Translations under genes and position numbers: made by a program
Part shown: piece by piece, positions 128-55,864 of the stretch
Position numbering within the stretch: the stretch's first letter is position 1
How the letters are laid out: each line of letters opens with the position of its first letter
The notes under the pieces: model-generated
Database searches by the model: none
The model's input: only the letters and a program-made list of their open reading frames with translations
What the model was told of the DNA's origin: nothing
Source: Candidatus Saccharimonadota bacterium
Lineage (GTDB): Bacteria > Patescibacteriota > Saccharimonadia > Saccharimonadales > Saccharimonadaceae
Length of the DNA stretch: 64,000 nucleotides
NCBI GenBank assembly: GCA_017541245.1
Contig: JAFXZL010000002.1
Span: forward strand, 18,877-82,876
Reading direction: 5' to 3'

Positions 128-874
128 TTAGTGAAGATGCTGAGCTAACTTTTCTGCGCCGTTTGGAAGAACGATAACAGTCTTCTGGGAAGGATCGTTG
201 GAAATCTTCTCAAGAGTTTGAAGAGTACGAATCTGGATACCGCCTGGAGTGCGAGCAAGAAGGCTAGCAGCTTCGGAGACAGCCTGAGCGGCACTCTTTT
301 CACCATCGGCGGCAATAATTGCAGCACGGCGTTCGCGTTCGGCTTCCGCCTGCTTTGCCATTGCGCGCTTCATGTCGCTTGGGAGCTCAATGTTCTGAAG
401 CTTAACGTTCTCAATATCGATACCCCACTTATCGGTTTCCTTGTCGACGATTTCCTTAATCTGGGCGGAAATTTCATCACGCTTGGAAAGGAGCTCATCA
501 AGCTCGAAGTTACCAGTAATATCACGAAGAGCAGCCTGAGCAAAGTTTGTGGTTGCATAAACGTAGTTGGTTGTTTCGAGCAAAGCTTTGGAAGGATCAA
601 GCACGCGGAAGTAGACAATAGCATCTACGCCAACAGTAACGTTATCCTTAGTAATAACCTCCTGCTTTGGCACATCGATTGGCGTGGAGCGAACATCGAC
701 GCGAGTCATGGTCTGAAGATATGGAATAACCACCTGTAGACCTGGATTGCGCATACCGGTGTATTTACCTAGAGTAAATACGACACCGCGCTCGAACTGA
801 CGCACGACACGGACGCCTGGCAAAATAATTAAAATTATGACAAATAATATAACTGTTAATGCAACTCCTGGCAT
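128..874 (-). CDS. SPFH/band-7 (stomatin/prohibitin-like) membrane protein
   Basis: N-terminal TM helix, then an SPFH-type core (RVVRQFERGVVFTLGK...VGVDAIVYFRV) and an A/E/R-rich tail (AMAKQAEAERERRAAI). SD is taaggagaaaatATG. An extended -10 (tgctataat) lies at about 899-907 on the minus strand. Confidence 0.85.
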   Translation of the reverse strand: MPGVALTVILFVIILIILPGVRVVRQFERGVVFTLGKYTGMRNPGLQVVIPYLQTMTRVDVRSTPIDVPKQEVITKDNVTVGVDAIVYFRVLDPSKALLETTNYVYATTNFAQAALRDITGNFELDELLSKRDEISAQIKEIVDKETDKWGIDIENVKLQNIELPSDMKRAMAKQAEAERERRAAIIAADGEKSAAQAVSEAASLLARTPGGIQIRTLQTLEKISNDPSQKTVIVLPNGAEKLAQHLH

Positions 875-936
875 ATTTTCTCCTTAATACTTAAATCTAT
901 TATAGCATTAACGGAATAATTTAAAGCAAATAAAAT

Positions 937-956
937 GCCACCGCTTTCGCGGTGGC
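937..956 (-). terminator. intrinsic terminator of cassette A
   Basis: GCCACCGC-TTTC-GCGGTGGC, an 8-bp GC stem. On the minus strand it is followed by ATTTTATTT. It lies 20 nt past the stop of the 976-1173 gene. Confidence 0.7.
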
Positions 957-975
957 AAGTCTAAGGAATAGCGAG

Positions 976-1173
976 TTATGAATTGGTCTTGCGGGGCGCT
1001 CTACGTCCGAAGATTTTCTTCTTGCGAGCTTTCTCGTTGCGTCGGCGAACGATGCTCCGATGATACTCAAGAAGTTCTTCTAACGTTTCCGGCTCGTCGG
1101 ATTCCCATGCGGAAAGCGATGCCGAGGCGGCAATGAGCGCGGCTGAATAGGAGATGGGATTGAATGGGACCAT
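976..1173 (-). CDS. small hypothetical protein with a basic tail (cassette A, gene 2)
   Basis: In-frame ATG at 1173 is preceded by GGAGG with 8-nt spacing; the longest ORF begins at GTG 1182. The region is GC-rich. The C-terminal motif DEPETLEELLEYHRS is followed by an R/K-rich tail. No family recognised. Confidence 0.55.
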   Translation of the reverse strand: MVPFNPISYSAALIAASASLSAWESDEPETLEELLEYHRSIVRRRNEKARKKKIFGRRAPRKTNS

Positions 1174-1197
1174 AATCGTCACCTCCTCTTGCCGAAC

Positions 1198-1836
1198 TTA
1201 TCCTCTGCGCGCTCTGCGGCCGGAAGGCGTTCTGCCAGGCTTGGTCTCAACGGGCTTCTTCTCGGCGGCGGGCTTGTCGGCCGGGGCCTCAGCGGCGCTC
1301 GCACGGTGAAGCTTCATCAGCTCTTCCAGAGTGCTCGGCTCTTCAGCCGGAGCCCCGGTGGTAGCGGATCTCCTGACGGGCTTTTCGCCATGATCTTTGA
1401 CGACAGCGGGCTTCTCGGCCGGGGCCTCAGCGGCGGGCTCTTCAGCGGTGAGCTTGTCGGTCAGGTACTTCATGGCCTTGCCCATCAGCGCTCTATCGCG
1501 CTCACAGGTCCAGAGAGCCGTCCTGATGACGACCTTCCCCTTGTCATCAACTGTGGGGTTCAGCCACGTGATGACGCCAGCGCCGACTGCGGCCTTGAAT
1601 GCGGACACGTTGGTCCAGTCGCCGATGAACACGATGTTCTTGGGGTCGGCGATCAGGATATTGGCAGCCTTCTCCGGCAGCATGAACAGATCATCCAGAT
1701 GCTCGAGGTCGATGCGGACCGTTTCTTCGTTCACCCAGTTGAAACCCTGTCCTTTCGTCAGAGTCTCGGTCTTGGTAGCGGGAGTTGCGTCCAGGCCGGT
1801 CAGCAGGTTGATAAGAGACGTAGTTTTGATCTTCAT
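1198..1836 (-). CDS. hypothetical protein with a P/A/E/K-rich C-terminal half (cassette A, gene 1)
   Basis: ATG at 1836 is preceded by AGGAGG (1846-1850 on +) with 9-nt spacing. A promoter lies upstream and a terminator downstream on the same strand. The motif EEPSTLEELMKLHRAS resembles that of the downstream gene. No family recognised. Confidence 0.6.
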   Translation of the reverse strand: MKIKTTSLINLLTGLDATPATKTETLTKGQGFNWVNEETVRIDLEHLDDLFMLPEKAANILIADPKNIVFIGDWTNVSAFKAAVGAGVITWLNPTVDDKGKVVIRTALWTCERDRALMGKAMKYLTDKLTAEEPAAEAPAEKPAVVKDHGEKPVRRSATTGAPAEEPSTLEELMKLHRASAAEAPADKPAAEKKPVETKPGRTPSGRRARRG

Positions 1837-1916
1837 AAATTCTTTCCTCCTAAAGAACAACCGCTTTTCGCGGTGGAATATTCGATCGCTACCCCTATGG
1901 CAGCAATCCTTGGTGT

Positions 1917-1945
1917 ATTATATCAAAGTTTTGCCTTTTTGTCAA
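1917..1945 (-). promoter_or_regulatory. sigma70-type promoter of cassette A
   Basis: On the minus strand: TTGACA (1940-1945), a 17-nt spacer, then TATAAT (1917-1922) within TTTGATATAAT. Confidence 0.65.
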
Positions 1946-1993
1946 TAGTATGATAGCATTTATGATAACTTTTATGCTAAGATAGAGATAGAT

Positions 1994-2689
1994 ATGGGGA
2001 AATTATTAGACATAGACGCCAGTACAGATATAACCCTAGTTGGCAATCTTGGCGTATATTTGGCACGCCTAAAACGGGCCGGTTTTCGCGTGGTCGATGG
2101 CTTTATTATTCCCGCAAACGAGGAGTTACAATTTGGCCTCAGTAGCGAGATACTTCGTGCTTTCGACAGATTAGGCGCAAATACCGTTGCACTGCGTGCA
2201 GCCCCAATTGAAATGGACATCTATTCTAGCGAGACAATTCGAGGCGTCAAGCGTGACGTACTTGTGGAAACAATTGATTATCTTCGGAACAATTCCCTGC
2301 GCCGCGGCCACAAAGTAGCCGTAGTCGTGCAAAAAGATCTTAATGCGGAGTTTTCTGGCACCATTCACTCCTATAACCCGGTTACTTTGGATAATGGCGA
2401 GATTTTAATAGAGGCGAACCTTTGGATGAATGACACCATCTTAACTGGCGAGTCTGAAACCGATATGATTCTCGTGAATAAAAATACCGGCGCATTAAAT
2501 CTTGAAAGTGAAGATGAAGACGAAATCTGCTTAACGCCAAATCAAATATCTCAGCTATATAATATGATTCGAAAGATTGAAAAAAAGCTAGACGAGGCCG
2601 TCAGCGTAGACTGGGCTTATGACAATGGAATTCTCTACGTCCTTCGCGCCCGCCCAATAACTCAAAAAACATACGAAAGGTATATGTAA
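1994..2689 (+). CDS. stand-alone PEP/pyruvate-binding (PPDK_N-type ATP-grasp) domain protein
   Basis: VGNLGVYLARLKRAGFRVVDGFIIP near the N-terminus and VDWAYDNGILYVLRARPIT near the C-terminus match the N-terminal nucleotide-binding domain of the PEP synthase/PPDK/rifampicin phosphotransferase families. No swivel-His or PEP-utiliser domain follows. Confidence 0.7.
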   Translation: MGKLLDIDASTDITLVGNLGVYLARLKRAGFRVVDGFIIPANEELQFGLSSEILRAFDRLGANTVALRAAPIEMDIYSSETIRGVKRDVLVETIDYLRNNSLRRGHKVAVVVQKDLNAEFSGTIHSYNPVTLDNGEILIEANLWMNDTILTGESETDMILVNKNTGALNLESEDEDEICLTPNQISQLYNMIRKIEKKLDEAVSVDWAYDNGILYVLRARPITQKTYERYM

Positions 2690-3681
2690 TGCTGCACACT
2701 ACGCTAATAATTCTAAAGAAAGATGACGAAATCCTGCTTGGGCTAAAAAAACGCGGATTCGGCAAAGGCAGATTAAATGGCGTAGGTGGCAAGCTTGAGC
2801 CGGGCGAGACTATAGAGGAAGCCGCAATCCGTGAGACCGAGGAAGAAATCGGCGTCAATCTTACGAAGATGGAGCATGTGGCGGATATCGTCTTTGACAA
2901 CCTTTATTATAAGGGCGTGCCAGAACGCAACGTAATGCATGTTTTCTTTGGCCTAAAATGGAAAGGCGAACCTATTGAAAGTGACGAGATTGAGCCGCAC
3001 TGGGTAAAGATATCCGAAATCGACTACGACAAGATGTGGTGTGACGATGAACATTGGTATCCGCACGTATTAGCTGGCGAGAAGGTTGAGGCCTGGTTCC
3101 ACTTCAATGAAGATGATACCTATGATGATTTCTGGATTGATGTCATGGATAAGCATCTAATTGACGATATCGACGATAAAGATGTTGGCTTAGCAGACAA
3201 GAAACGTAAAGCCGGCAAAGATTATTCCTTTAAACCTGGATCTCGCGCAATTCTACTCAACGACAAAGGACAGGTAGCGTTGATTCATAGCGTGAATCGT
3301 GGCTGGTATAAATTGCCTGGTGGTGGGCGCGAAGATGGCGAACTTGCTCGCGAGAATCTTGAACGCGAGCTGATTGAAGAAACTGGCTATAAGGTGGATG
3401 TCCTTCAAAATCTCGGCATCTGCCGTAATGTGCGCCACGACTGGAGGATGGCCGCAGAGGCTCAGATTTATCTTTGCCGCACTAAAGAATTCGTCGGCAA
3501 ACAGCAGATGGAAGATGAAGTCGAAGACGGCGACACGCTTGAATGGTTTGATAGTTTTAATGCAGCAATCGACGTTCTAAAATCGGTTAAGCTTGAAGAA
3601 ATCGGCTTTTATGGCGCATACTTCTTTACAAGAAGAGAGATTGACGCACTAGAATACGCGAAAAAAGTTTACAAGAAATAA
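2689..3681 (+). CDS. tandem NUDIX hydrolase (two Nudix domains fused)
   Basis: Two Nudix boxes are present: GGKLEPGETIEEAAIRETEEEIGV and PGGGREDGELARENLERELIEETGY. The start overlaps the upstream stop (ATGTAATG). Confidence 0.8.
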   Translation: MLHTTLIILKKDDEILLGLKKRGFGKGRLNGVGGKLEPGETIEEAAIRETEEEIGVNLTKMEHVADIVFDNLYYKGVPERNVMHVFFGLKWKGEPIESDEIEPHWVKISEIDYDKMWCDDEHWYPHVLAGEKVEAWFHFNEDDTYDDFWIDVMDKHLIDDIDDKDVGLADKKRKAGKDYSFKPGSRAILLNDKGQVALIHSVNRGWYKLPGGGREDGELARENLERELIEETGYKVDVLQNLGICRNVRHDWRMAAEAQIYLCRTKEFVGKQQMEDEVEDGDTLEWFDSFNAAIDVLKSVKLEEIGFYGAYFFTRREIDALEYAKKVYKK

Positions 3682-4859
3682 TGGACGAAAGACGACCACT
3701 TGCCGAGCGCATGCGCCCGCAAAAACTTGAAGATGTTTTAGGTCAGGACGATATTATCGGCGATGGCAAGATTTTGACGGAAATCGTCAAAAAGCAAGAA
3801 CCGGTCAATATCATCTTTTGGGGGCCGCCAGGAACTGGCAAGACTACACTCGCACGCATTATTGCGAAGGAATTCAAAGCTGACTTTATTGAGATTTCTG
3901 CGGTTACATCTGGCAAGAAAGATGTCGAGAAGGTCGTAGAGCGCGCAAAACAGAACTGGAATCTTAAAACTCGCACTGTGCTTTTTGTAGATGAAATTCA
4001 TCGCTTCAATAAGGCGCAACAAGACGCGTTTTTGCCGCACGTCGAAAGTGGCCTAATAACCCTAATCGGCGCCACCACTGAGAATCCAAGCTTCGAAGTT
4101 ATTTCCCCATTACTCTCCCGTAGTCGCGTCGTAATTGTAAAACACCTATCTAAGGCCGATATCGTAGAGGTCCTAAAGCGTGCAATTAAAGCCGAAAAAG
4201 CCACGAAACGCGTCTCAAAAGCCGCAATAGATTATCTTGCCGAGCTATCTGGCGGCGACGCCCGTTCTGCTCTCGGCGATTTGGAATTAGCGCTTAGTCT
4301 CAGTAAAAAGATTGGTGTCGACGAAGTTAAAGAGGCAGCTGGCCGCAAAGTCCCAGGATACGACAAAAAGGGCGACAACCACTATGACAACATTTCGGCA
4401 TTCATTAAATCCATGCGCGGAAGCGATGCCGATGCAGCATTATACTATTTAGCACGCATGCTTAATGCAGGCGAAGATCCAAAGTTTGTTGCGCGACGCA
4501 TGGTAATCTTTGCTTCCGAAGATATTGGTCTAGCTGGAAATGGTGCACTTGGCTTGGCTCTTAACGCGTTTATGGCGGTTGAAAGAATTGGCATGCCAGA
4601 AAGTGGGCTAATTCTCGCGCACGTCACGACGGCTTTAGCAAAATCAAAGAAATCACGCGTAACGACTGACGCTTGGTATGCGGCGCAAGATTTAGCAAAT
4701 AAAACAATGGGGCTTCCTGTACCGATTTGGCTTCGTAATGCGCCAACAAAACTCATGAAAGACCTTGGATTTGGTAAGGGGCAAAAATGGGAAGCTGGCT
4801 TCCATTTAGATAAAAACTATTTGCCAGATGAAATTAAAGATACAAAGATTCTCCCATAA
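3681..4859 (+). CDS. rarA: replication-associated recombination protein A (AAA+ ATPase)
   Basis: Walker A is [15 protein letters not shown] and Walker B is [11 protein letters not shown]. An MgsA-type C-terminal region is present ([24 protein letters not shown]). The start overlaps the upstream stop (TAATG). Confidence 0.9.
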
Positions 4860-19899: not shown

Positions 19900-20688
19900 A
19901 TGACTAGGATTATGTTAGTCGAGGACGATAAGTCCTTGCGAGAAATATATAGCATTAGGTTGGTCGCCGAAGGCTACGATATCATCTCTGCAGGCGACGG
20001 CGAGGAAGCACTCGCGTTGGCCGTGCAGTACAAGCCGGAGCTCATCATTGCAGATGTGATGATGCCAAAAATTTCTGGCTTCGATATGCTCGATATCCTT
20101 CGTTCTCAGCCTGAGACAAGCAAGATTAAAGTAATTATGATGACGGCACTTTCTAGTGACGAACAGCGTCAACGTGGCGAAGCCCTAGGCGCAGAGCGCT
20201 ATCTAGTAAAGTCCCAGGTTGGCATTGAGGACGTCATCGCGACAGTCCACGAAGTTCTTGGCGATGCGCCAAATTCGAATGCTCAGGCAAATATGGATAC
20301 TGCCGCCGCTATGCCTGCAGTAGAAGCCGCAATTAAAGAGCAGCAGCCAGCAGAAGCGCCGCTTCCTGATACTACAGAACTTAATGCCGTAGAAACGACT
20401 CCAACCACTACGATTGAGCCAACCAATTCCAATATTCCGGCACCAACAACTAGCCAGATTATCCCAGATTCTCCAACAGAATTGCCTGTAGATAATCCTG
20501 CGCCAGCACCGGCCGCACCAGTCGCTCCGGTCACTCCAGCACCGGCCCCAGCGCCAGCTCCGGCTCCAGCACCGGCCCCAGCGCCAGCGCCAATTGCTCC
20601 AACTCCAGTTGGCCCAGCGCCGATTGCGCCACCAGAACCAGCACCAATGACGAGTCCTGACCAGATTCCACCAGCTGATTTCCAATAA
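19900..20688 (+). CDS. response regulator with a receiver domain only, plus a ~140-aa Pro/Ala/Thr-rich tail
   Basis: Receiver residues are present: VEDD, IIADVMMP (phospho-Asp), MMTALS and YLVKS. There is no HTH or enzymatic output. The tail contains PAPAPAPAPAPAPAP. Confidence 0.8.
   Translation: MTRIMLVEDDKSLREIYSIRLVAEGYDIISAGDGEEALALAVQYKPELIIADVMMPKISGFDMLDILRSQPETSKIKVIMMTALSSDEQRQRGEALGAERYLVKSQVGIEDVIATVHEVLGDAPNSNAQANMDTAAAMPAVEAAIKEQQPAEAPLPDTTELNAVETTPTTTIEPTNSNIPAPTTSQIIPDSPTELPVDNPAPAPAAPVAPVTPAPAPAPAPAPAPAPAPAPIAPTPVGPAPIAPPEPAPMTSPDQIPPADFQ
20536..20588 (+). repeat. 30-bp tandem duplication inside the (Pro-Ala)n coding region
   Basis: CCAGCACCGGCCCCAGCGCCAGC occurs at 20536-20558 and again at 20566-20588. 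Confidence 0.7.
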
Positions 20689-20714
20689 TTTATTAATTTT
20701 TGTATTACCGCAAA

Positions 20715-22106
20715 ATGCCACCATCACCATCAGAAGCCACTAATGTGCCACCAAATGGGCAAGTGCCGATGCCGCCGAGTCCAGCAGCACCGGCTAATAC
20801 TTCTGATGCCAAGCAAATTGCGGAAGCTCAAGCACAACTCCTAGCCAAAGCTATTATTGAAGCACAAAATATGGCCGTGGCGCCGCCTGAACAGTTTAAA
20901 GAAGGTAGCCAACAGGCCAGTTTGGATGCGCCCGGTTCCGAAGGTGCCAGCATGTTTATAGACACAGACAAAGCGCCACAGGTCACCGAGCAACAGAGGG
21001 CCCAAACAACTTCTAGCGATCACGGCGAACGCGTGATTCAGCCGATTCATGATATTGTCATGGAACAGAAGCGCGAAGATATGCAGAAACGCATGTCTGA
21101 GCTACTAGGTGATACTGACGCAGAGCCGACGCAGATTAATACCAATACTGCAAAGCACGTCAATGATGCCAATGTAAGAATGACTGTGCAAAATGCAACG
21201 CAGGCAAGCGAACAGATTCCGATGCCCGTCGCTGTACCACAAATGGGCGCACAGCCACAACCGGCGCCACAGCCAATACCGCAACCACAGCAGTATCAAC
21301 AGACCGTCCCCGCTGGCTATGCGCAGAATATTTACGCACAAGGATATCAGCAAGAATCATTCATCAATCCAGCTCAGACCGTAATGGCGCAGATGCAGGC
21401 AGCTCAAGTTCAGGCGCCGCAGATGTATTATTTACAACAGCAGCAAGCACAGCAACAAACCATGCAAAGTATGGATCCGCGTGCAGCCGCAATCCAATTA
21501 CAGCAGCTCCAGGCAGAAGAAGCGCGTAGAACTCAATACGACCAAGTCGCCGCGGCACAAATAGCACAGCAACAGGCCCAGCAGCTCGCGCAACAACAAG
21601 CTATATCTCAACAGCAGGCACTTGCTCAGCAGCAAGCCGCACGTGCTCAGGCTGCAGCTTTGACCCCAGCAGCACCGCACAAAAACTTGCGCGTAAATGA
21701 TACCGTTGTAAAGAGGGCCGCTCAGGCAACTATTCTGCAAACTCAAAAGGGCCAGCAGCAGCCACAGCAACAGCCACAAGAAGAACCAGTACAGGTTATT
21801 CAACCAGCCTATATAACTCAGCTAGAGACAGAATTGGCGGGCGACATGCAACAAAAAGGTAAAATGTCAGCGATGCAGCGTGCAATGATGGCAGAACTTG
21901 CCGACGACGAAATTACGCTCGAGGCCAGCAAGATTGACGTAAAACCAGATCCAGCCAAGTTGGCACCAAAACGAGAAGTCGACAACACGCCAAAAGAAGT
22001 TCTTGCCGCAATGCAAAGCGCAGCAAGCCCGAATATTGCCACCAATCCAAATATTGCGCCTAGTACTCCAACCGAGATAAACGCAGATATCAAGCATGAC
22101 CAATAA
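20715..22106 (+). CDS. Gln/Ala/Pro-rich low-complexity protein, unknown function
   Basis: ATG at 20715, 27 nt after the RR stop. The N-terminus is Pro-rich and long Q/A tracts follow (QQQQAQQQ, AQQQAQQLAQQQAISQQQALAQQQAA). No TM segment. Confidence 0.55.
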   Translation: MPPSPSEATNVPPNGQVPMPPSPAAPANTSDAKQIAEAQAQLLAKAIIEAQNMAVAPPEQFKEGSQQASLDAPGSEGASMFIDTDKAPQVTEQQRAQTTSSDHGERVIQPIHDIVMEQKREDMQKRMSELLGDTDAEPTQINTNTAKHVNDANVRMTVQNATQASEQIPMPVAVPQMGAQPQPAPQPIPQPQQYQQTVPAGYAQNIYAQGYQQESFINPAQTVMAQMQAAQVQAPQMYYLQQQQAQQQTMQSMDPRAAAIQLQQLQAEEARRTQYDQVAAAQIAQQQAQQLAQQQAISQQQALAQQQAARAQAAALTPAAPHKNLRVNDTVVKRAAQATILQTQKGQQQPQQQPQEEPVQVIQPAYITQLETELAGDMQQKGKMSAMQRAMMAELADDEITLEASKIDVKPDPAKLAPKREVDNTPKEVLAAMQSAASPNIATNPNIAPSTPTEINADIKHDQ

Positions 22107-26185: not shown

Positions 26186-26827
26186 ATGAAGAAAACCACA
26201 AGGACACTCGTAATGTTGCTAACCGTTGTCATGATGCTTGGTGTGTTTTCGACACCCGCCTTTGCCGCAACCAACAACAACAGTGCCGCCATGAAGAGAT
26301 CCACCAAGGATACTCAGGCCCTGGTTGACGCTGGCGAATATTATGGCTGGTCTGCCGATGTCAAGACGAAGTCTCAGACTCCAAGCAAGATCGTGACTAC
26401 AATCCGGCTCTTCAACGGAAAGAACTACATCTTCAACGTCACCCAGACGACGCAGAAGAAAGGTTCTTCCATCGCCACCAAGTACAACATCGGCGGCAAG
26501 AACTACGTACTGGCAGGGATAAAAGCCTCGCTAAAAAGGTACGCGTCTGGTGCCGGCAAGAGAGCCGTGTTGGAAGACAAGGTCAATATCGCAGCCGATG
26601 CGCTTGCAAAATACGCAAGAAAGATGGGCTGGACCGTCACCGACAAGAATGGCTACAAGAATGGCGCTGCAACCTGCAAGCACACTTACCGGAATGGCAA
26701 GTATCAATTCACTGCAGTCGTGAAAGGTGTACGCAAGAGCGGCAAGATTATGCTCAGCTACACCAGAGACCGTAGATCCTCGAGCAAAAAGGCCATCAAA
26801 GCCTGGCTGAAGACCTATGCGCAGTGA
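26186..26827 (+). CDS. secreted basic protein, unknown function (cassette B)
   Basis: AGGAAGGAG lies 8 nt before ATG 26186. The signal peptide is MKKTTRTLVMLLTVVMMLGVFSTPAFA/A. The mature part is K-rich. Codons are mostly C/G-ending. No family recognised. Confidence 0.6.
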   Translation: MKKTTRTLVMLLTVVMMLGVFSTPAFAATNNNSAAMKRSTKDTQALVDAGEYYGWSADVKTKSQTPSKIVTTIRLFNGKNYIFNVTQTTQKKGSSIATKYNIGGKNYVLAGIKASLKRYASGAGKRAVLEDKVNIAADALAKYARKMGWTVTDKNGYKNGAATCKHTYRNGKYQFTAVVKGVRKSGKIMLSYTRDRRSSSKKAIKAWLKTYAQ

Positions 26828-49640: not shown

Positions 49641-50168
49641 TTACCAGCTAGTGCTTTTGGGAGTACTCCTCTTGGGCTTCGGGGTCTGGTACCAGACAAT
49701 GAGGTCGCGGAGAGTCATTGTAGGCTGCTCCTTTACCGTCTTGCCTTCTGTGGCCTTCTCGCGAGCCTTGACGGCTGCTTCATACAGACGCTTCACCTTG
49801 TTGCGGATTGCAGTGCGGAACTTGCTTTCAGGCATTGTAGAGCGGGCCATCGAGCGAAAGTCTTTGACGGCCTGTTCGGTACATTCAAGACCAAGTTCCT
49901 TAATGCTCTCCATTACGGCCCCCCATTGACGCTCGGTACGAGCGCTGAGCTCGTTGTATTTTTCGACAACGATACGGGAATTGCCGCCGTAATACTTGTT
50001 GAAAACGTACTGTACCTCCGGAGGCATCCAGCAATCAAGTTTGTCGTAGACGCCCCTGATTTGATTGTAGTCGCCTACGGTTTTAAGCCAGGCGTCCAAT
50101 CTCCAATAATAGAGTTCCTTCCCATTTTTTGCACTTGTAGAAGAGCTAAATGACACATGAATCACCAC
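49641..50168 (-). CDS. soluble hypothetical protein with a basic tail (cassette D)
   Basis: GC-rich ORF between its own promoter and terminator. The SD-like AAAGGTGGTGA suggests that the true start may be the second in-frame GTG at 50159. No family recognised. Confidence 0.55.
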   Translation of the reverse strand: MVIHVSFSSSTSAKNGKELYYWRLDAWLKTVGDYNQIRGVYDKLDCWMPPEVQYVFNKYYGGNSRIVVEKYNELSARTERQWGAVMESIKELGLECTEQAVKDFRSMARSTMPESKFRTAIRNKVKRLYEAAVKAREKATEGKTVKEQPTMTLRDLIVWYQTPKPKRSTPKSTSW

Positions 50169-50371: not shown

Positions 50372-51685
50372 CTATTCGACGTCGTCAGGATCCGGGTCGC
50401 CCTGGTTGACGCCGTCATCCTGAACTGCAGGCTCTACAGTTTCAGAACCGTGCTGGTCTTCCTGGATTTGGTTCAGATCTCCATGATCTTCACCGCCGCC
50501 GGCCTCTACTTCATAAGACCGGCCTCCATGCTCTTCTGTCGTGCCATCATCATGGTCAGCAGTGGCAGAACCGGAATCGGTTCCAGCCGAAGCATCGGGC
50601 TGTCCGTCAGACGTAGTAGGACCGCTATCGGAAGGAGCAGGTTCGGGCGTAGATGGAGCAGGCGGAGCGGGTGGAGTATAGGTCTCCGGAGAATCTGGCT
50701 CATCAGTAATGGTCTCATCAATGTCATGATTCTCACCGCCGCCAAAGTCCTCATACCCTGACTCCGTAGGATCAGCCTGCTGCTGCGGACCCGCATCGGG
50801 ATCCTTAGGCTCGGGCGTAGGCGTAGGTTCCGGAGTAGGCTCAGGAGTCGGTTCCGGAGTAGGTTCCGGTGTCGGCTCTGGCGTAGGTTCCGGAGTAGGC
50901 TCAGGGGTCGGCTCCGGAGTAGGTTCCGGAGTAGGCTCTGGCGTAGGTTCCGGAGTAGGTGTCGGCTCATCAGGAGGTACCGGCGGAGTCCAGTATGGAA
51001 TGTCTACTGGCTGATAGCCGCATTCCAACCTGAATTTCACGATTCCCGGCTTCCCGAGGTCAAACACTACCACGTGTCCACCTTCGTTCTGCGTGTCGCG
51101 AACGATAACGCTAGGCTTGTTGCCCTCAAGGTGGTTATGCCACTGATACATCTGGGACGTATAGTGGTCAAGCCCCTGAATGCTGATTTCCGAACTGGTC
51201 AGATAATCAGTGATTAAGGCAACTGCACGATCCCAATAGTCCTGATCCTTCAGGAAATGGAGATGTGCCGCGTCAGCCCTCTGGCCGATTAAGACGTCTT
51301 GCTCGTCGCGGAGAATCGTCTCCGGCAAAACAAGGCTCTCGTCCATATGAACCGCTACGGCAGCACAAAATGCAGGGTCGACTTTGATCGATTCGAAAAA
51401 GTCACCTGTTCCCTGGTTTGTTGCCACCCATTCCTGGACGGATGCCACCTTTCCTTCTGCGACGGCTTTGTCGGCCTGGGCCTTGCGGTCCGGGCCGAAG
51501 TTGAAGTTGTTGTTGCCAATGTCGTCGGCGTTCACATCATCATTGAAGTAGTGAATCACCCTACCAGAAGCAGCGTAGGCTGCCTGGATGATGCCACCCC
51601 TGATTGTCGGAACGCATAAACAGATGGCAAGAACAAGAAACACGGCGCTAATGATTGCGCCTTTTTTCGCTGTGCTAGTCTTCAT
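50372..51685 (-). CDS. exported protein with (PEPT)n repeats and an acidic tail, unknown function (cassette E)
   Basis: GGAAGGT lies 7 nt before ATG 51685. There is an N-terminal signal/TM (GAIISAVFLVLAICLCVP), a globular domain of about 200 aa, PTPEPTPEPTPEP... repeats and a D/E/G/S/T-rich C-terminus. Confidence 0.65.
   Translation of the reverse strand: MKTSTAKKGAIISAVFLVLAICLCVPTIRGGIIQAAYAASGRVIHYFNDDVNADDIGNNNFNFGPDRKAQADKAVAEGKVASVQEWVATNQGTGDFFESIKVDPAFCAAVAVHMDESLVLPETILRDEQDVLIGQRADAAHLHFLKDQDYWDRAVALITDYLTSSEISIQGLDHYTSQMYQWHNHLEGNKPSVIVRDTQNEGGHVVVFDLGKPGIVKFRLECGYQPVDIPYWTPPVPPDEPTPTPEPTPEPTPEPTPEPTPEPTPEPTPEPTPEPTPEPTPEPTPEPTPTPEPKDPDAGPQQQADPTESGYEDFGGGENHDIDETITDEPDSPETYTPPAPPAPSTPEPAPSDSGPTTSDGQPDASAGTDSGSATADHDDGTTEEHGGRSYEVEAGGGEDHGDLNQIQEDQHGSETVEPAVQDDGVNQGDPDPDDVE
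50821..50960 (-). repeat. 60-bp higher-order tandem repeat (about 2.3 copies) encoding (PEPT)5 units
   Basis: GCGTAGGTTCCGGAGTAGGCTCAGG... restarts at 50821, 50881 and 50941 with only a few substitutions per copy. The internal period is 12 bp. Confidence 0.8.
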
Positions 51686-51911
51686 TTGCGTCACCTTCCT
51701 TTCGGATTGGTCTTGCCCAACTTAGGGCAGATGTGAAAACACATAGATAGATATGCGCCTGCTATTACTAGCAAGCAAAGCACCCCTTCCCAGAGGGTGG
51801 AACTACAGAAAATAGTTTCTCTTCTTACTGCGTAGATTGTACGCAGTAATAATCTGGCTGTTAATGCTGCGTATTACGTAAGACTCCGCAAAGAATTACG
51901 AGTACCTATAT

Positions 51912-53626: not shown

Positions 53627-54124
53627 ATGCGTAAACTCATCGACTTCATCTGCGGCACCGTTTATCTCGGTCTGGTCCTCCTTCTTGTACTCGCCCTTGC
53701 ATTCAGTATTCTGTTCGGTATCAACCGCAACAACTCTACTAAGAACGCAGTCCGGGACAACGTCGTAAACGTACTTCAAGATCAAAGAAGCAAAGATGCT
53801 TACAATCTGCTCCGGGACAACGATTGGGACGGGTTCACGAAGCTCTACGGACTTGACCCTACGTACTACACGGTCGGCGACGAAGCCTACGTCTCGCTGG
53901 TTAGCGAAAACATGATGGAAACCATCATTATCCATGCCGGCAAAGCGAGACACAGCCAAGTTGAAGCCTTTGCGGTGCAAGGGTACGGCGAACACTGGGA
54001 AACCTTCAACATCGACGAGGGCTGCTCCCTGAGCGTGACCATCCTCGGAAAGACCGTGAACTTTACGCCCACCGGCGCAGCAACGCTGTGCCAGATTCTT
54101 TCTCGGCTGATGCCAGCCGAATAA
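53627..54124 (+). CDS. membrane-anchored hypothetical protein (cassette F)
   Basis: GGGAGG lies 8 nt before the ATG. The N-terminal TM is GTVYLGLVLLLVLALAFSILFGI. Codons are mostly C/G-ending. No family recognised. Confidence 0.6.
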   Translation: MRKLIDFICGTVYLGLVLLLVLALAFSILFGINRNNSTKNAVRDNVVNVLQDQRSKDAYNLLRDNDWDGFTKLYGLDPTYYTVGDEAYVSLVSENMMETIIIHAGKARHSQVEAFAVQGYGEHWETFNIDEGCSLSVTILGKTVNFTPTGAATLCQILSRLMPAE

Positions 54125-55486: not shown

Positions 55487-55864
55487 ATGGCAAGAAAACC
55501 TAGTGGCAACAACAGCCACAGCTACGCTGACTATGATCCGAGTTTCGCGCAGAGAATGCGCGAGGAATGGAGAGAAAAGAATCCGTATTACCGCGGGATG
55601 GAGGCACGTACCATTCATGAAAACCTGTGGAGCAAGACTCCCAGTTTCTTCTGGATTGGATTTATCGGTCTCATCGCGTGGATCGCTTCACTGCTTCTGA
55701 AGCTGATGATTCCCGCAAAGTGGAAAGTCATTACTTGGCTCATTGGCGCCATTGGCACCGTGGGCAAGTGGGCGTTCTTCATCGGCGCAGGCATCATCGT
55801 TCTACTATTCCTTGTAGGACTCGCGTTCAAGATCGGCGACTGGCTGAAAAATGCCAGGTGGTAA
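55487..55864 (+). CDS. small membrane protein (cassette G, 125 aa)
   Basis: GGGAGGGG SD. The N-terminal half is hydrophilic and two to three TM segments follow (FFWIGFIGLIAWIASLLL, VITWLIGAIG, FFIGAGIIVLLFLVGLAF). No family recognised. Confidence 0.6.
   Translation: MARKPSGNNSHSYADYDPSFAQRMREEWREKNPYYRGMEARTIHENLWSKTPSFFWIGFIGLIAWIASLLLKLMIPAKWKVITWLIGAIGTVGKWAFFIGAGIIVLLFLVGLAFKIGDWLKNARW

What the first reader, a model, noticed from the sequence alone, without database searches (positions are those of the whole stretch)
937..1945. Cassette A: a two-gene GC-rich insert bracketed by a duplicated terminator-like hairpin, with both products sharing a TLEEL-x3-HR motif before a basic tail
Seen directly: ACCGCTTTCGCGGTGG (940-955, part of the cassette terminator) recurs as ACCGCTTTTCGCGGTGG (1860-1876). 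The second copy lies in the 5' leader between the promoter (1917-1945) and the SD. There it forms a hairpin followed by UGUUCUUU on the transcript. So the roughly 920-bp GC-rich block is flanked by direct copies of one hairpin. That fits either insertion into, or duplication of, a pre-existing terminator, or a leader attenuator. The two encoded proteins share ...EEPSTLEELMKLHRAS... and ...DEPETLEELLEYHRSI.... Both then end in R/K-rich tails. The cassette D product has a looser version (QPTMTLRDLIVWYQ followed by KPKRSTPK). A shared short linear motif in otherwise unrelated ORFans suggests a common docking, export or partner-binding signal.
Basis: seen in the sequence. Interest (0 to 1): 0.65.

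Follow-up and report, generated by a model that had tools for sequence, protein, structure and literature searches.

The report
Resident fast-evolving gene, not an insert
The GC-rich "cassette" is an old, strongly transcribed resident gene of gut and rumen Saccharibacteria that encodes an uncharacterised, fast-evolving protein with a disordered tail; the two similar hairpins are its 5' leader stem-loop and its terminator, and the small second gene most likely arose as a copy of the first gene's tail.

Summary
What it concluded is mostly not supported.

**Confirmed in the window**
- The two near-identical hairpins are at 940-955 and 1860-1876.
- There is a perfect promoter, a GC-rich block and a TLEEL-x3-HR motif in both products.

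**Why it is not an insert**
- 21 related loci keep a homologue of gene A1 at this same site, between the PPDK_N-like gene and the SPFH gene. This holds down to about 25% protein identity.
- No empty site was found.
- High GC3 (0.60-0.82) is kept in all homologues.
- A1's synonymous divergence is no higher than its neighbours'. Its protein divergence is 8 to 35 times higher.

**The hairpins**
- One is the intrinsic terminator. The other is the second of three leader stem-loops.
- Their likeness is limited to nearer relatives, and the two vary independently.

**The motif and A2**
- The motif marks the disordered A1 tail in one clade. A more distant clade carries NPFD instead.
- A2 exists only in the window's own strain group. 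It repeats both tail blocks in order and in frame, shows weak constraint, and is broken in one strain.
- A2 is therefore most likely a partial copy of the A1 tail, not an unrelated orphan gene.
- The "cassette D" resemblance is not supported.

**Expression and function**
- Rumen metatranscriptomes show strong A1-A2 co-transcription.
- Function is unknown. The best guess is an abundant, non-enzymatic adaptor protein.

The parts
1917..1945 (-). Promoter of the A1-A2 transcript: TTGACA, 17 nt, TG-n-TATAAT.
   Evidence: It matches 12 of 12 consensus positions with an extended -10. It is conserved in all orthologous loci. It overlaps the divergent PPDK_N promoter-like site at 1939-1966.
1884..1908 (-). 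Leader hairpin 1: a 10-bp stem that starts 2-4 nt after the predicted transcript start.
   Evidence: The leader folds at -27.5 kcal/mol, z-score -3.9, and 0 of 200 shuffles fold as well. A 5'-terminal hairpin is present in all nine representative leaders, although the stem sequences differ.
1860..1874 (-). Leader hairpin 2 (ACCGC-GAAAA-GCGGU).
   Evidence: The stem is kept in type II loci, L012, L013, L014 and L015. L018 has a compensatory change (AUCGCU/AGCGAU). L027 and L030 have a different stem (CCGCC/GGCGG).
1839..1858 (-). Leader hairpin 3 (GUUCUUU/AAAGAAU), with the SD AGGAGG (1851..1846) in its loop.
   Evidence: The U-rich stretch after hairpin 2 is the 5' arm of this stem.
1198..1836 (-). 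A1 coding sequence, 212 aa. Residues 1 to about 130 (1447-1836) form an alpha/beta domain; residues 131-212 form a disordered A/P/E/K-rich tail.
   Evidence: GC3 is 0.75 against a window mean of 0.48 (sd 0.07). No Pfam, PHROGs or PADLOC family matches. Homologues occur only at this locus. The AlphaFold2 model of the domain has pLDDT 81 and pTM 0.77, while the tail is below 50.
1303..1332 (-). A1 tail motif TLEELMKLHR (residues 169-178), a predicted short helix.
   Evidence: T169, L170 and L173 are invariant across the aligned TLEEL-clade members, down to 26% identity. The motif was not part of the profile that found the distant members.
1210..1221 (-). Basic tip GRRA of the A1 tail (residues 206-209), followed by RRG and the stop codon.
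   Evidence: G206, R207 and A209 are invariant in the 14-sequence alignment. A basic cluster is present in all homologues.
1182..1188 (-). SD sequence (GAGGAGG) of A2, 8 nt before its ATG.
   Evidence: Read from the sequence. It is conserved in L004, L005, L007 and L009, and deleted in L003.
976..1173 (-). A2 ORF, 65 aa, in the same frame as A1. It carries TLEELLEYHR (1057-1086) and FGRRA (997-1011).
   Evidence: There are only two other protein clusters, at 98% and 89% identity. It is absent from type II and all more distant loci. It is broken by two deletions in L003. The family motif profile hits it at E=1e-4. dN/dS is 0.6-1.3, based on few changes. It is co-transcribed with A1.
926..957 (-). 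Intrinsic terminator: UGCCACCGC-GAAA-GCGGUGGCA followed by UUUUAUUUGC.
   Evidence: The stem GCCACCG(C)/(G)CGGUGGC is kept in type II loci, L012, L013, L018, L027 and L030, with a different loop in each. L014, L015 and L020 have GGCCGCCG instead, and L032 has a different GC-rich stem.

Best explanation
Window 926-1945 (minus strand) is one self-contained, strongly expressed transcription unit. It has long been resident at this locus in a clade of gut and rumen Saccharibacteria.

**How the unit is built**
- A consensus extended -10 promoter drives an mRNA with a leader of about 75 nt.
- The leader folds into three stem-loops. One sits at the very 5' end. The second is ACCGC/GCGGU. The third displays the SD in its loop.
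- Inference: these stem-loops stabilise the mRNA and favour translation initiation. They do not attenuate transcription.
- The unit ends at a strong intrinsic terminator just before the SPFH gene's own promoter.

**The two hairpins.** The two similar hairpins are leader stem 2 and the terminator stem. In the window's lineage they happen to share CCACCGCGAAA(A)GCGGU. They are not scars of a recent insertion.

**The A1 protein**
- A1 has a small alpha/beta domain of about 130 aa with no conserved catalytic residues.
- A disordered tail follows. It carries a short helical motif (P-x-T-L-E-E-L-x3-H-R) and ends in a basic tip (GRRA).
- A1 evolves 8 to 35 times faster at the protein level than its neighbours.
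- High GC3 is kept throughout the family. Inference: selection acts on the mRNA or on codon use.
- Inferred function: an abundant, non-enzymatic adaptor or hub protein that docks a conserved partner through the tail motif and basic tip.

**A2.** A2 is a young mini-ORF found only in the window's strain group. It is co-transcribed with A1 and repeats the two tail blocks in order and in frame. It most likely arose by partial tandem duplication of the A1 3' end. It is weakly constrained and dispensable.
For: **Residency at the locus**
- A1 homologues lie between PPDK_N and Band_7 in 21 distinct loci: L001-L010, L012-L013, L014-L015, L016-L018 and L020, L027, L030, L032. L019 is the same contig as L010.
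- L027 and L030 are tied to the family by hhalign, probability 88%, E 3e-6.

**Evolutionary rates, window versus L001**
- Neighbours: 92-99% aa identity, dN 0.010-0.043, dS 0.54-2.06.
- A1: 56% identity, dN 0.345, dS 0.775.

**Composition.** GC3 is 0.75 in A1 against 0.48 +/- 0.07 for the window. It is 0.60-0.82 in the homologues.

**Leader and terminator**
- The leader fold has z-score -3.9.
- The three-hairpin build recurs in most of nine diverse leaders, and L018 carries a compensatory change in hairpin 2.
- The terminator stem is conserved with varying loops.

**Expression**
- At least 14 metatranscriptomic runs from at least 8 studies hold words of the cassette.
- None of those runs holds the MgsA control stretch of equal length.
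- In the eight runs laid on the window, contigs covered 991-1893 and none covered 2011-3000; in the four runs laid further, none covered up to 4000.
- Five contigs from five runs cross the A1 stop and A2 start.

**Motif**
- It is conserved in the alignments.
- It is also present in distant members that were found with a profile of the N-domain alone.

**A2**
- A profile built only from A1 orthologues hits A2 at E=1e-4 among 1135 six-frame segments.
- A2 is in the same frame as A1.
- It carries the collinear blocks TLEEL..HR and GRRA.
- It occurs only in the window's strain group and is scarred by deletions in L003.
Against: **Function and stabiliser role are inferred.**
- No partner, localisation or phenotype is known.
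- The mRNA-stabiliser role of the leader is inferred from its anatomy; no half-life or transcript-end data exist.

**Expression evidence is indirect.** It comes from assembled contigs. These carry no strand information and are a poor measure of abundance.

**The origin of A2 is not proven.**
- At the nucleotide level the A1 tail and A2 are no more alike than codon-shuffled controls: score 19 against 18.7 +/- 2.6.
- A duplication origin therefore rests on two short protein blocks, their order and their frame.
- Convergence, or an older origin followed by loss in other lineages, is not excluded.

**The hairpin likeness is not explained.** In the window it is far beyond chance, and the core ACCG/CGGU is shared in several lineages. 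An ancient common origin of the two hairpins cannot be ruled out.

**The cause of high GC3 is untested.** No ribosomal protein genes were available for comparison.
Confidence: 0.6

Rival explanations
1. The 920-bp GC-rich two-gene block is a horizontally acquired cassette that inserted into, or duplicated, a pre-existing terminator hairpin, leaving one copy at each end.
For: The hairpin 18-mer recurs only at the two ends of the block, with 0.02 matches expected by chance. GC3 of A1 is about 4 sd above the window mean. The codon choice resembles that of high-GC organisms.
Against: No empty site was found in 21 syntenic loci spanning a wide range of divergence. Both hairpins are present where A2 is absent. 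The block is not one unit, because A2 is a later, lineage-specific addition. dS of A1 is not higher than its neighbours'. High GC3 is kept although neighbour dS is saturated. The hairpin likeness is absent in L014, L015, L018, L027, L030 and L032, and the two stems change independently. There are no mobility genes and no second copy.
Confidence: 0.06
2. Leader hairpin 2 is a regulatory element. It could be a transcription attenuator, or a binding site for a protein that also recognises the terminator hairpin, so that expression of A1 is switched or autoregulated.
For: The hairpin is followed by UUGUUCUUU and passes the simple terminator scan. Its stem sequence is conserved across several lineages with one compensatory change. 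It shares its core with the terminator stem in those lineages.
Against: The stem has only 5 bp and the U run is interrupted. That run is predicted to pair into hairpin 3 around the SD. L013, L027, L030 and L032 have no U run after the hairpin. RNA contigs pass through the hairpin into the coding region, at 1684-1893 and 1568-1887. The leader stem and terminator stem do not co-vary: L018 changes only the leader, and L014 and L015 change only the terminator. No Rfam family matches.
Confidence: 0.15
3. A1 is an exported host-interaction protein of the epibiont, for example a type IV secretion substrate. Its disordered C-terminus, helical motif and basic tip act as the export or coupling-protein signal. 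A2 is a second small substrate made by copying that signal.
For: A1 evolves fast, with dN/dS 0.34-0.68 against 0.006-0.03 for its neighbours. It is restricted to one lineage. It is highly expressed. The N-terminus shows no obvious signal-peptide hydrophobic core (my reading of the sequence; no predictor was run). The C-terminus is disordered and basic. The motif differs between clades: TLEEL against NPFD. Patescibacteria widely carry a type IV secretion system of the monoderm conjugation type (PMC12102498).
Against: There is no direct evidence of export. No secretion genes are linked to the locus. The motif lies 35-45 residues from the C-terminus. No secretion signal is defined for these systems. 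A cytoplasmic role fits the same data.
Confidence: 0.12
4. A2 is a functional small protein, not a by-product. It would present a free copy of the tail motif and basic tip and so compete with, or tune, the binding of A1 to its partner.
For: It has a strong SD at the right spacing. It is co-transcribed with A1. The half that encodes the motif and basic tip is almost invariant among the strains that carry A2, while the N-terminal half varies. The family profile hits it at E=1e-4.
Against: dN/dS is 0.6-1.3. All changes in the N-terminal half are non-synonymous. L003 has lost the SD, the start codon and the motif through two deletions. It is absent from every other lineage. GC3 has fallen to 0.58 against 0.75 in A1.
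Confidence: 0.3

Closest known systems
Rho-independent (intrinsic) terminators
   Same: The element at 926-957 has a 9-bp GC-rich stem, a GAAA tetraloop and a run of U. It lies after the last stop codon and before the next promoter, and is conserved in the orthologous loci.
   Different: Nothing differs for the 3' element. The 5' copy (1860-1874) has only 5 bp and an interrupted U run that pairs elsewhere, so it does not behave like one.
5'-terminal stem-loop mRNA stabilisers with strong ribosome-binding sites (ompA 5' UTR in E. coli; aprE leader and cryIIIA STAB-SD in Bacillus). Named from general knowledge, not tested here.
   Same: A stable hairpin begins within a few nucleotides of the predicted 5' end. 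The SD is very strong. The arrangement is conserved while the stem sequences vary. RNA representation is high.
   Different: There is no sequence relation to those leaders. The 5' end and the half-life have not been measured. Three hairpins are present rather than one.
Globular domain, disordered linker, short conserved peptide and basic end, as in the FtsZ C-terminal linker/peptide or the SSB tail. An analogy of architecture from general knowledge.
   Same: A folded domain is followed by a long low-complexity linker, then a short conserved helix-forming motif, then a short basic tip. Linker length and sequence vary freely while the motif is kept.
   Different: There is no sequence or fold relation to FtsZ or SSB. 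The partner is unknown. The motif itself is replaced in a sister clade.
DHH/DHHA1 phosphoesterases (RecJ, NrnA/NrN, GdpP) and the AlaRS C-Ala domain
   Same: They are the best, though weak, structural neighbours of the N-domain model: Foldseek E 0.004-0.1 over about 115 aligned columns.
   Different: TM-score is at most 0.42 and no hit has E <= 0.001. Sequence identity is 6-15%. None of the acidic or histidine residues is conserved across the family. There is no Pfam match.
NfeD-SPFH gene pairs of bacteria. Named from general knowledge.
   Same: A small gene lies directly upstream of an SPFH/Band_7 gene in the same orientation, and this adjacency is conserved.
   Different: There is no NfeD domain and no evident membrane segment (and the A1 sequence; no membrane-helix predictor was run). 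A strong terminator and a separate promoter lie between the two genes. The synteny is no stronger than for the rest of the neighbourhood.

Membership tests
Intrinsic terminator (3' hairpin, 926-957) | A GC-rich stem-loop immediately followed by a run of U on the transcript. | tested here: met
   The stem has 9 bp, 7 of them G-C, with a GAAA loop, followed by UUUUAUUU.
Intrinsic terminator (3' hairpin, 926-957) | Placed after the last stop codon, and structure conserved in orthologous loci. | tested here: met
   It starts 19 nt after the A2 stop. The stem is kept with different loops in type II loci, L012, L013, L018, L027 and L030, and replaced by another GC-rich stem in L014, L015, L020 and L032.
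Transcription attenuator (5' hairpin, 1860-1874) | A terminator-grade hairpin with an uninterrupted U run in the leader, conserved among orthologues. | tested here: not met
   The stem has 5 bp and the U run is interrupted (UUGUUCUUU) and pairs into the SD-presenting hairpin 3. There is no U run in L013, L027, L030 or L032.
Transcription attenuator (5' hairpin, 1860-1874) | Premature 3' ends after the hairpin, with an alternative structure or ligand that controls them. | not testable with these tools
   Only assembled RNA contigs are available. They show read-through at 1684-1893 and 1568-1887, but they cannot show short terminated transcripts.
Inserted mobile cassette (integron cassette, MITE/IS-borne or island-type insert) | Presence/absence polymorphism: an empty site in relatives. 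| tested here: not met
   All 21 loci that keep the flanking genes carry an A1 homologue.
Inserted mobile cassette (integron cassette, MITE/IS-borne or island-type insert) | Flanking direct repeats created by the insertion. | tested here: inconclusive
   The repeat is present in the window. However, both hairpins also flank the one-gene form, and the likeness is lost in L014, L015, L018, L027, L030 and L032.
Inserted mobile cassette (integron cassette, MITE/IS-borne or island-type insert) | Mobility functions or further copies. | tested here: not met
   The cassette products and the four flanking genes scanned show no integrase or transposase domain. Neither the hairpin nor the A1 domain has another copy in the window.
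Two-gene toxin-antitoxin or defence module | Both genes belong to known toxin, antitoxin or defence families, and the pair is conserved. | tested here: not met
   There are no Pfam, PADLOC or PHROGs matches. A2 is absent from most loci that have A1.
DHH/DHHA1 phosphoesterase superfamily | Conserved DHH-type metal-binding motifs and a confident fold match. | tested here: not met
   The best Foldseek E is 0.004, and 0.02 with the better model; TM is at most 0.42. Invariant residues are glycine, tryptophan and hydrophobic only.
NfeD partner of SPFH proteins | An NfeD (PF01957) OB-fold domain, usually with membrane helices, in one operon with the SPFH gene. | tested here: not met
   There is no Pfam match. 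A terminator and a separate promoter lie between A1/A2 and the SPFH gene.
A1 protein family (defined here) | An N-terminal alpha/beta domain of about 130 aa, then a disordered tail with a short motif and a basic tip, encoded between PPDK_N and SPFH, with high GC3. | tested here: met
   For A1. A2 meets only the tail part.

The most novel reading that the evidence does not exclude
A1 may be a very highly expressed, fast-evolving interface protein of the epibiont. It would be exported or displayed towards the host bacterium, and its tail (helical motif plus basic tip) would be a portable export or docking signal.

Three things would follow. A2 would be a case of gene birth in which the signal was copied first. 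The TLEEL/NPFD exchange between clades would track a change of partner. The unusual GC3 would be held by selection on the mRNA rather than by ancestry.
Probability: 0.1. Interest if true: 0.7.

Novelty: new member of a known kind. Interest (0 to 1): 0.35.

Why it matters
**For annotation.** A GC-rich block with look-alike hairpins at both ends resembles a mobile insert, but comparison with relatives shows a resident gene. A compositional outlier in these small genomes is therefore not automatically horizontal transfer.

**For the biology of Saccharibacteria.** The locus points to an undescribed protein family with four notable properties:
- It is far better represented in rumen metatranscriptomes than a neighbouring housekeeping gene.
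- Its protein sequence evolves 8 to 35 times faster than its neighbours'.
- It carries a conserved short motif in a disordered tail.
- It keeps an unusual codon composition.

Abundant, fast-evolving orphan proteins are reasonable candidates for the poorly understood epibiont-host interface. This one offers a concrete peptide (TLEEL-x3-HR plus GRRA) for pull-down experiments. A2 is a small, datable example of a new ORF arising from part of an existing gene.

Tried and rejected
- **BLASTP of A1 against A2** gave no alignment. I replaced it with Smith-Waterman plus shuffles and a family motif profile.
- **Nucleotide-level duplication test** of the A1 tail against A2 was not significant. The duplication origin therefore stays an inference.
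- **A2 as a remnant of the long C-terminal extension** seen in the 279-291 aa homologues: rejected. A2 resembles the first-motif region, not the extension.
- **Pfam, PHROGs and PADLOC** gave nothing for A1 or A2.
- **Rfam** gave only sub-threshold hits on the terminator hairpin.
- **Foldseek** against viral models and against PDB with two models gave no hit with E <= 0.001.
- **The exhaustive profile search** returned Ig-repeat and YadA-stalk proteins with many short matched stretches. I rejected these as repeat artefacts.
I used the PPDK_N alignment instead.
- **RNAalifold on a MAFFT alignment of the leaders** put hairpin 2 out of register and gave a meaningless consensus. I replaced it with single-sequence folds.
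- **Raw DNA reads of three 2026 runs** laid nothing on the region.
- **Shared leader with the other high-GC3 ORFs:** they share a promoter pattern but not this leader.
- **Two literature searches** found no description of this family.
Full report
**1. What is in the window**

All features of the finding lie on the minus strand.
- A promoter at 1945..1917 matches TTGACA-17-TATAAT at 12 of 12 positions and has an extended -10 TG.
- A leader of about 75 nt follows.
- A1 runs 1836..1198 (212 aa, preceded by AGGAGG).
- After A1's TAA come 24 nt that contain GAGGAGG.
- A2 runs 1173..976 (65 aa).
- A hairpin follows at 957..936 (UGCCACCGC-GAAA-GCGGUGGCA) with UUUUAUUU after it.
- The flanking genes are an SPFH/Band_7 gene (874..128, minus), then on the plus strand a PPDK_N-like gene (1994-2689), a double NUDIX gene and an MgsA/RarA gene.

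The 18-mer, allowing up to 2 edits, occurs only at these two places in the window, against 0.02 expected. GC is 0.61 in 1001-1500 against about 0.45 overall.

**2. The block is not an insert**

A1 has very few relatives: 13 clusters in a word-seeded search of 5.8 billion proteins. Every relative whose context could be read lies at the same place, between PPDK_N and Band_7. The relatives fall into these groups:
- *Type I* (90-94% identity, followed by A2): L004, L005, L007, L008, L009. L006 shows only the 3' end of A1 followed by A2. L003 carries a broken A2.
- *Type II* (47-50% identity, no A2): L001, L002, L010, L016.
- *Distant members* (25-32% identity): L012/L017, L013, L014, L015, L018, L020.

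An exhaustive profile search used the N-domain alone. It found the distant members P0022 and P0024 at E 8e-5 and 2e-4.

A metagenome scan seeded with the SPFH protein gave 80 loci. The four that keep PPDK_N upstream (L020, L027, L030, L032) all have a gene of the same build there. L027 and L030 are linked to the family by profile-profile comparison: probability 88%, E 3e-6, 119 columns.

No empty site was seen. Type II loci lack A2 yet carry the same promoter, leader hairpins and terminator. So the two hairpins do not bracket "the two-gene block".

**3. Rates and composition**

| Window versus L001 | aa identity | dN | dS | dN/dS |
|---|---|---|---|---|
| Four neighbouring genes | 92-99% | 0.010-0.043 | 0.54-2.06 | 0.006-0.03 |
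| A1 | 56% | 0.345 | 0.775 | 0.45 |

Within A1, dN/dS is 0.34 for residues 1-55 and 0.68 for residues 56-130.

A1 is therefore not a foreign or ancient allele, because its silent divergence is not elevated. Its protein sequence simply changes 8 to 35 times faster than its neighbours'. The same holds among close strains: window versus L007 gives A1 dN 0.041 against 0-0.006 for neighbours.

GC3 of A1 is 0.75, and 0.78 in the domain. The mean over 58 long ORFs of the window is 0.48 (sd 0.07). Homologues have GC3 of 0.60-0.82. This composition persists across lineages whose neighbouring genes are saturated at silent sites. Something therefore holds it in place, so it is not the fading signature of a recent transfer. 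What holds it (codon selection, mRNA stability or biased conversion) was not testable here.

**4. The hairpins**

The leader folds into three stem-loops at -27.5 kcal/mol, z-score -3.9:
- Hairpin 1 (1908..1884) starts 2-4 nt after the predicted start.
- Hairpin 3 (1858..1839) has UUCUUU paired with AAAGAA and holds the SD in its loop.

The "UGUUCUUU" after hairpin 2 is therefore the arm of another stem.

Single-sequence folds of nine diverse leaders show the same plan in most, with different stem sequences for hairpin 1. Across the relatives, the stems compare as follows:

| Lineage | Leader hairpin 2 stem | Terminator stem |
|---|---|---|
| Window, type II | ACCGC/GCGGU | (G)CCACCG(C) |
| L013 | ACCGC/GCGGU | (G)CCACCG(C) |
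| L012 | ACCGCU/AGCGGU | (G)CCACCG(C) |
| L014, L015, L020 | ACCGCU/AGCGGU | GGCCGCCG |
| L018 | AUCGCU/AGCGAU (compensatory change) | (G)CCACCG(C) |
| L027, L030 | CCGCC/GGCGG | (G)CCACCG(C) |
| L032 | GCCG/CGGC | AACCGCCCC/GGGGCGGUU |

 Where the terminator stem is conserved, each lineage has a different loop.

The two stems change independently. This argues against pairing between them and against a common sequence-specific binder. The close likeness in the window is confined to its near relatives. An ancient common origin of the two hairpins cannot be excluded, but it is not needed. No Rfam family matches.

**5. Expression**

- Words of 930-1950 are held by at least 14 runs labelled metatranscriptomic, from at least 8 studies of bovine, sheep and other gut samples.
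- The control stretch of equal length in MgsA (3700-4720) is held by none of them. It is held only by one study labelled "GENOMIC RNA-Seq" and one weak hit.
- Contigs of eight runs were laid on the window. Full-length matches fall at 991-1893, a few fall in the SPFH gene, and none falls in 2011-3000. In the four runs laid further, none falls up to 4000.
- Over 20 kb, the cassette is the only gene hit in all four runs. That comparison is biased, because those runs were chosen for holding the cassette. One search is the unbiased control.
- Five contigs from five runs cross the A1 stop and the A2 start (991-1360, 994-1273, 1061-1324, 993-1580, 994-1231). A1 and A2 are therefore on one RNA.
- The 5' side reaches 1893 and 1887, consistent with a start near 1910.
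- Contigs carry no strand and no fine depth, so attenuation cannot be judged.

**6. The proteins**

*A1.*
- It has no Pfam, PHROGs or PADLOC family.
- AlphaFold2 with a 9-sequence alignment gives a confident N-domain (pLDDT 81, pTM 0.77). It is a mixed alpha/beta fold ending in a long helix. In the full-length model the tail is below pLDDT 50, except for a predicted helix at 170-181.
- Foldseek finds nothing at E <= 0.001. The best neighbours are DHH/DHHA1-type proteins and the AlaRS C-Ala domain, with TM at most 0.42.
- Residues invariant across the family are glycine, tryptophan and hydrophobic residues only. An enzyme is therefore unlikely.
- The tail is an A/P/E/K-rich linker of variable length with internal repeats. 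It carries a motif and a basic tip.
- The motif reads xPxTLEELxxxHR in types I and II, TLEELF/Y/L in P0022-P0026, and TLEDL in L018. It is present in members that were found with the N-domain alone, which independently supports both the homology and the motif.
- In L027 and L030 the tail instead carries NPFD(G/D) followed by a basic patch (VRRVPG in L030, RHRRP in L027); the unit is repeated in L030. L032 has an acidic tail. The short motif therefore turns over between clades.

*A2.*
- It has only two other clusters, at 98% and 89% identity.
- It lies in the same frame as A1, eight codons after A1's stop.
- It carries TLEELLEYHR and FGRRA in the same order as A1's TLEELMKLHR and SGRRA.
- The local alignment score is 55 against 27.7 +/- 5.0 for shuffles.
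- A profile built only from A1 orthologues hits A2 at E 1e-4. The next best of 1135 segments is at E 0.66.
- It does not resemble the C-terminal extension of the long homologues.
- The sequence GCGCCCCGCA sits just after the stop in type II loci and inside the last codons of A2 in type I loci. This fits a tandem copy in which the downstream copy kept the original 3' junction.
- Against that origin, nucleotide similarity between the two copies is not above codon-shuffled controls.
- Constraint is weak. dN/dS is 0.58 and 1.3 in two comparisons. The N-terminal half shows only amino-acid changes. GC3 is 0.58.
- L003 has lost the SD, the start codon and the motif through two deletions.
- I conclude that A2 is a young derivative of the A1 tail and is dispensable. 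Whether it is translated and useful is open; I put that at about 0.3.

*Cassette D.* Its product does not match the motif profile.

**7. How it most likely works**

*Shown:*
- The unit is a conserved, autonomous transcription unit.
- It is strongly represented in RNA.
- A1 and A2 are co-transcribed.
- A1 evolves fast at the protein level and keeps high GC3.
- The tail motif is conserved.

*Inferred:*
- The leader hairpins protect the 5' end and present the SD, giving a stable, well-translated mRNA.
- A1 is an abundant, non-enzymatic adaptor that uses the tail helix and basic tip to dock a partner.
- The fast-changing domain reflects either weak constraint or an arms race. An export role at the epibiont-host interface fits but has no direct support. 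Type IV secretion systems are widespread in this group (PMC12102498), but no signal is defined for them.

**8. Comparison and novelty**

The expression signals are ordinary. The protein family is undescribed in the libraries and papers searched. In kind, however, it is a lineage-specific orphan protein with a disordered, motif-bearing tail. The "cassette with duplicated hairpin" is not a mobile element. Interest is moderate to low. The useful results are three: the insertion reading is rejected, a candidate abundant interface or adaptor protein with a testable peptide is defined, and there is a small example of a new ORF derived from a gene's tail.

Noticed in passing
window 26186-26827 (+), 49641-50168 (-), 53627-54124 (+), 55487-55864 (+): Four further small ORFs have raised GC3 (0.64-0.67, against a window mean of 0.48). 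Each sits behind a near-consensus extended -10 promoter that shares the pattern TTGAC(A/T)TTT...GTTTGTGCTATAAT. They do not share the A1 leader or the tail motif. They may form a class of strongly expressed orphan genes with the same compositional oddity.
   Followed up: partly
L027:1190-1771 and L030:1584-2333: Distant A1 homologues at the same locus carry NPFD(D/G) followed by a basic patch (RHRRP in L027...GSVRRVPG, repeated twice, in L030) in place of TLEEL. L032:1826-2476 has a strongly acidic D/E/Y tail. The short motif in the tail turns over between clades while the architecture stays.
   Followed up: partly
L003:5628-5711: One strain, otherwise 97.6% identical to the window, has the A2 region reduced to a remnant by two deletions. 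These remove the ribosome-binding site, the start codon and the motif.
   Followed up: yes
window 985-995: The 3' end of A2 is polymorphic between strains (...KTNS*...KTS*, and a longer form with 9 extra nt, TAGGTCGTT). RNA contigs of four independent runs all end at 991-994, probably because the assembly graph breaks at this variant.
   Followed up: no
window 1939-1966 (+): A promoter-like site for the divergent PPDK_N-like gene (TTGTCA-16-TATGAT) overlaps the -35 region of the A1 promoter. The two genes may therefore compete for polymerase.
   Followed up: no
window 19900-22106 (+) and 50372-51694 (-): These long proteins have extreme low-complexity stretches. One is a response-regulator-like protein with a (PA)n tail. 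One is a Q/A/P-rich 468-aa protein. One is a 440-aa protein with a hydrophobic N-terminus and (TPEP)n repeats. They account for the other GC-rich patches of the window.
   Followed up: no
L010:6467-6767 (same contig as L019): The horse-faeces MAG lacks the HSP20 gene that follows the SPFH gene in the other loci whose downstream side could be read (compared).
   Followed up: no
Proteins P0016-P0021 and P0023: The exhaustive profile search gave E-values down to 7e-15 for animal Ig-repeat proteins and a YadA-type adhesin. The cause is many short repeated partial matches being summed. These are artefacts, not relatives.
   Followed up: yes
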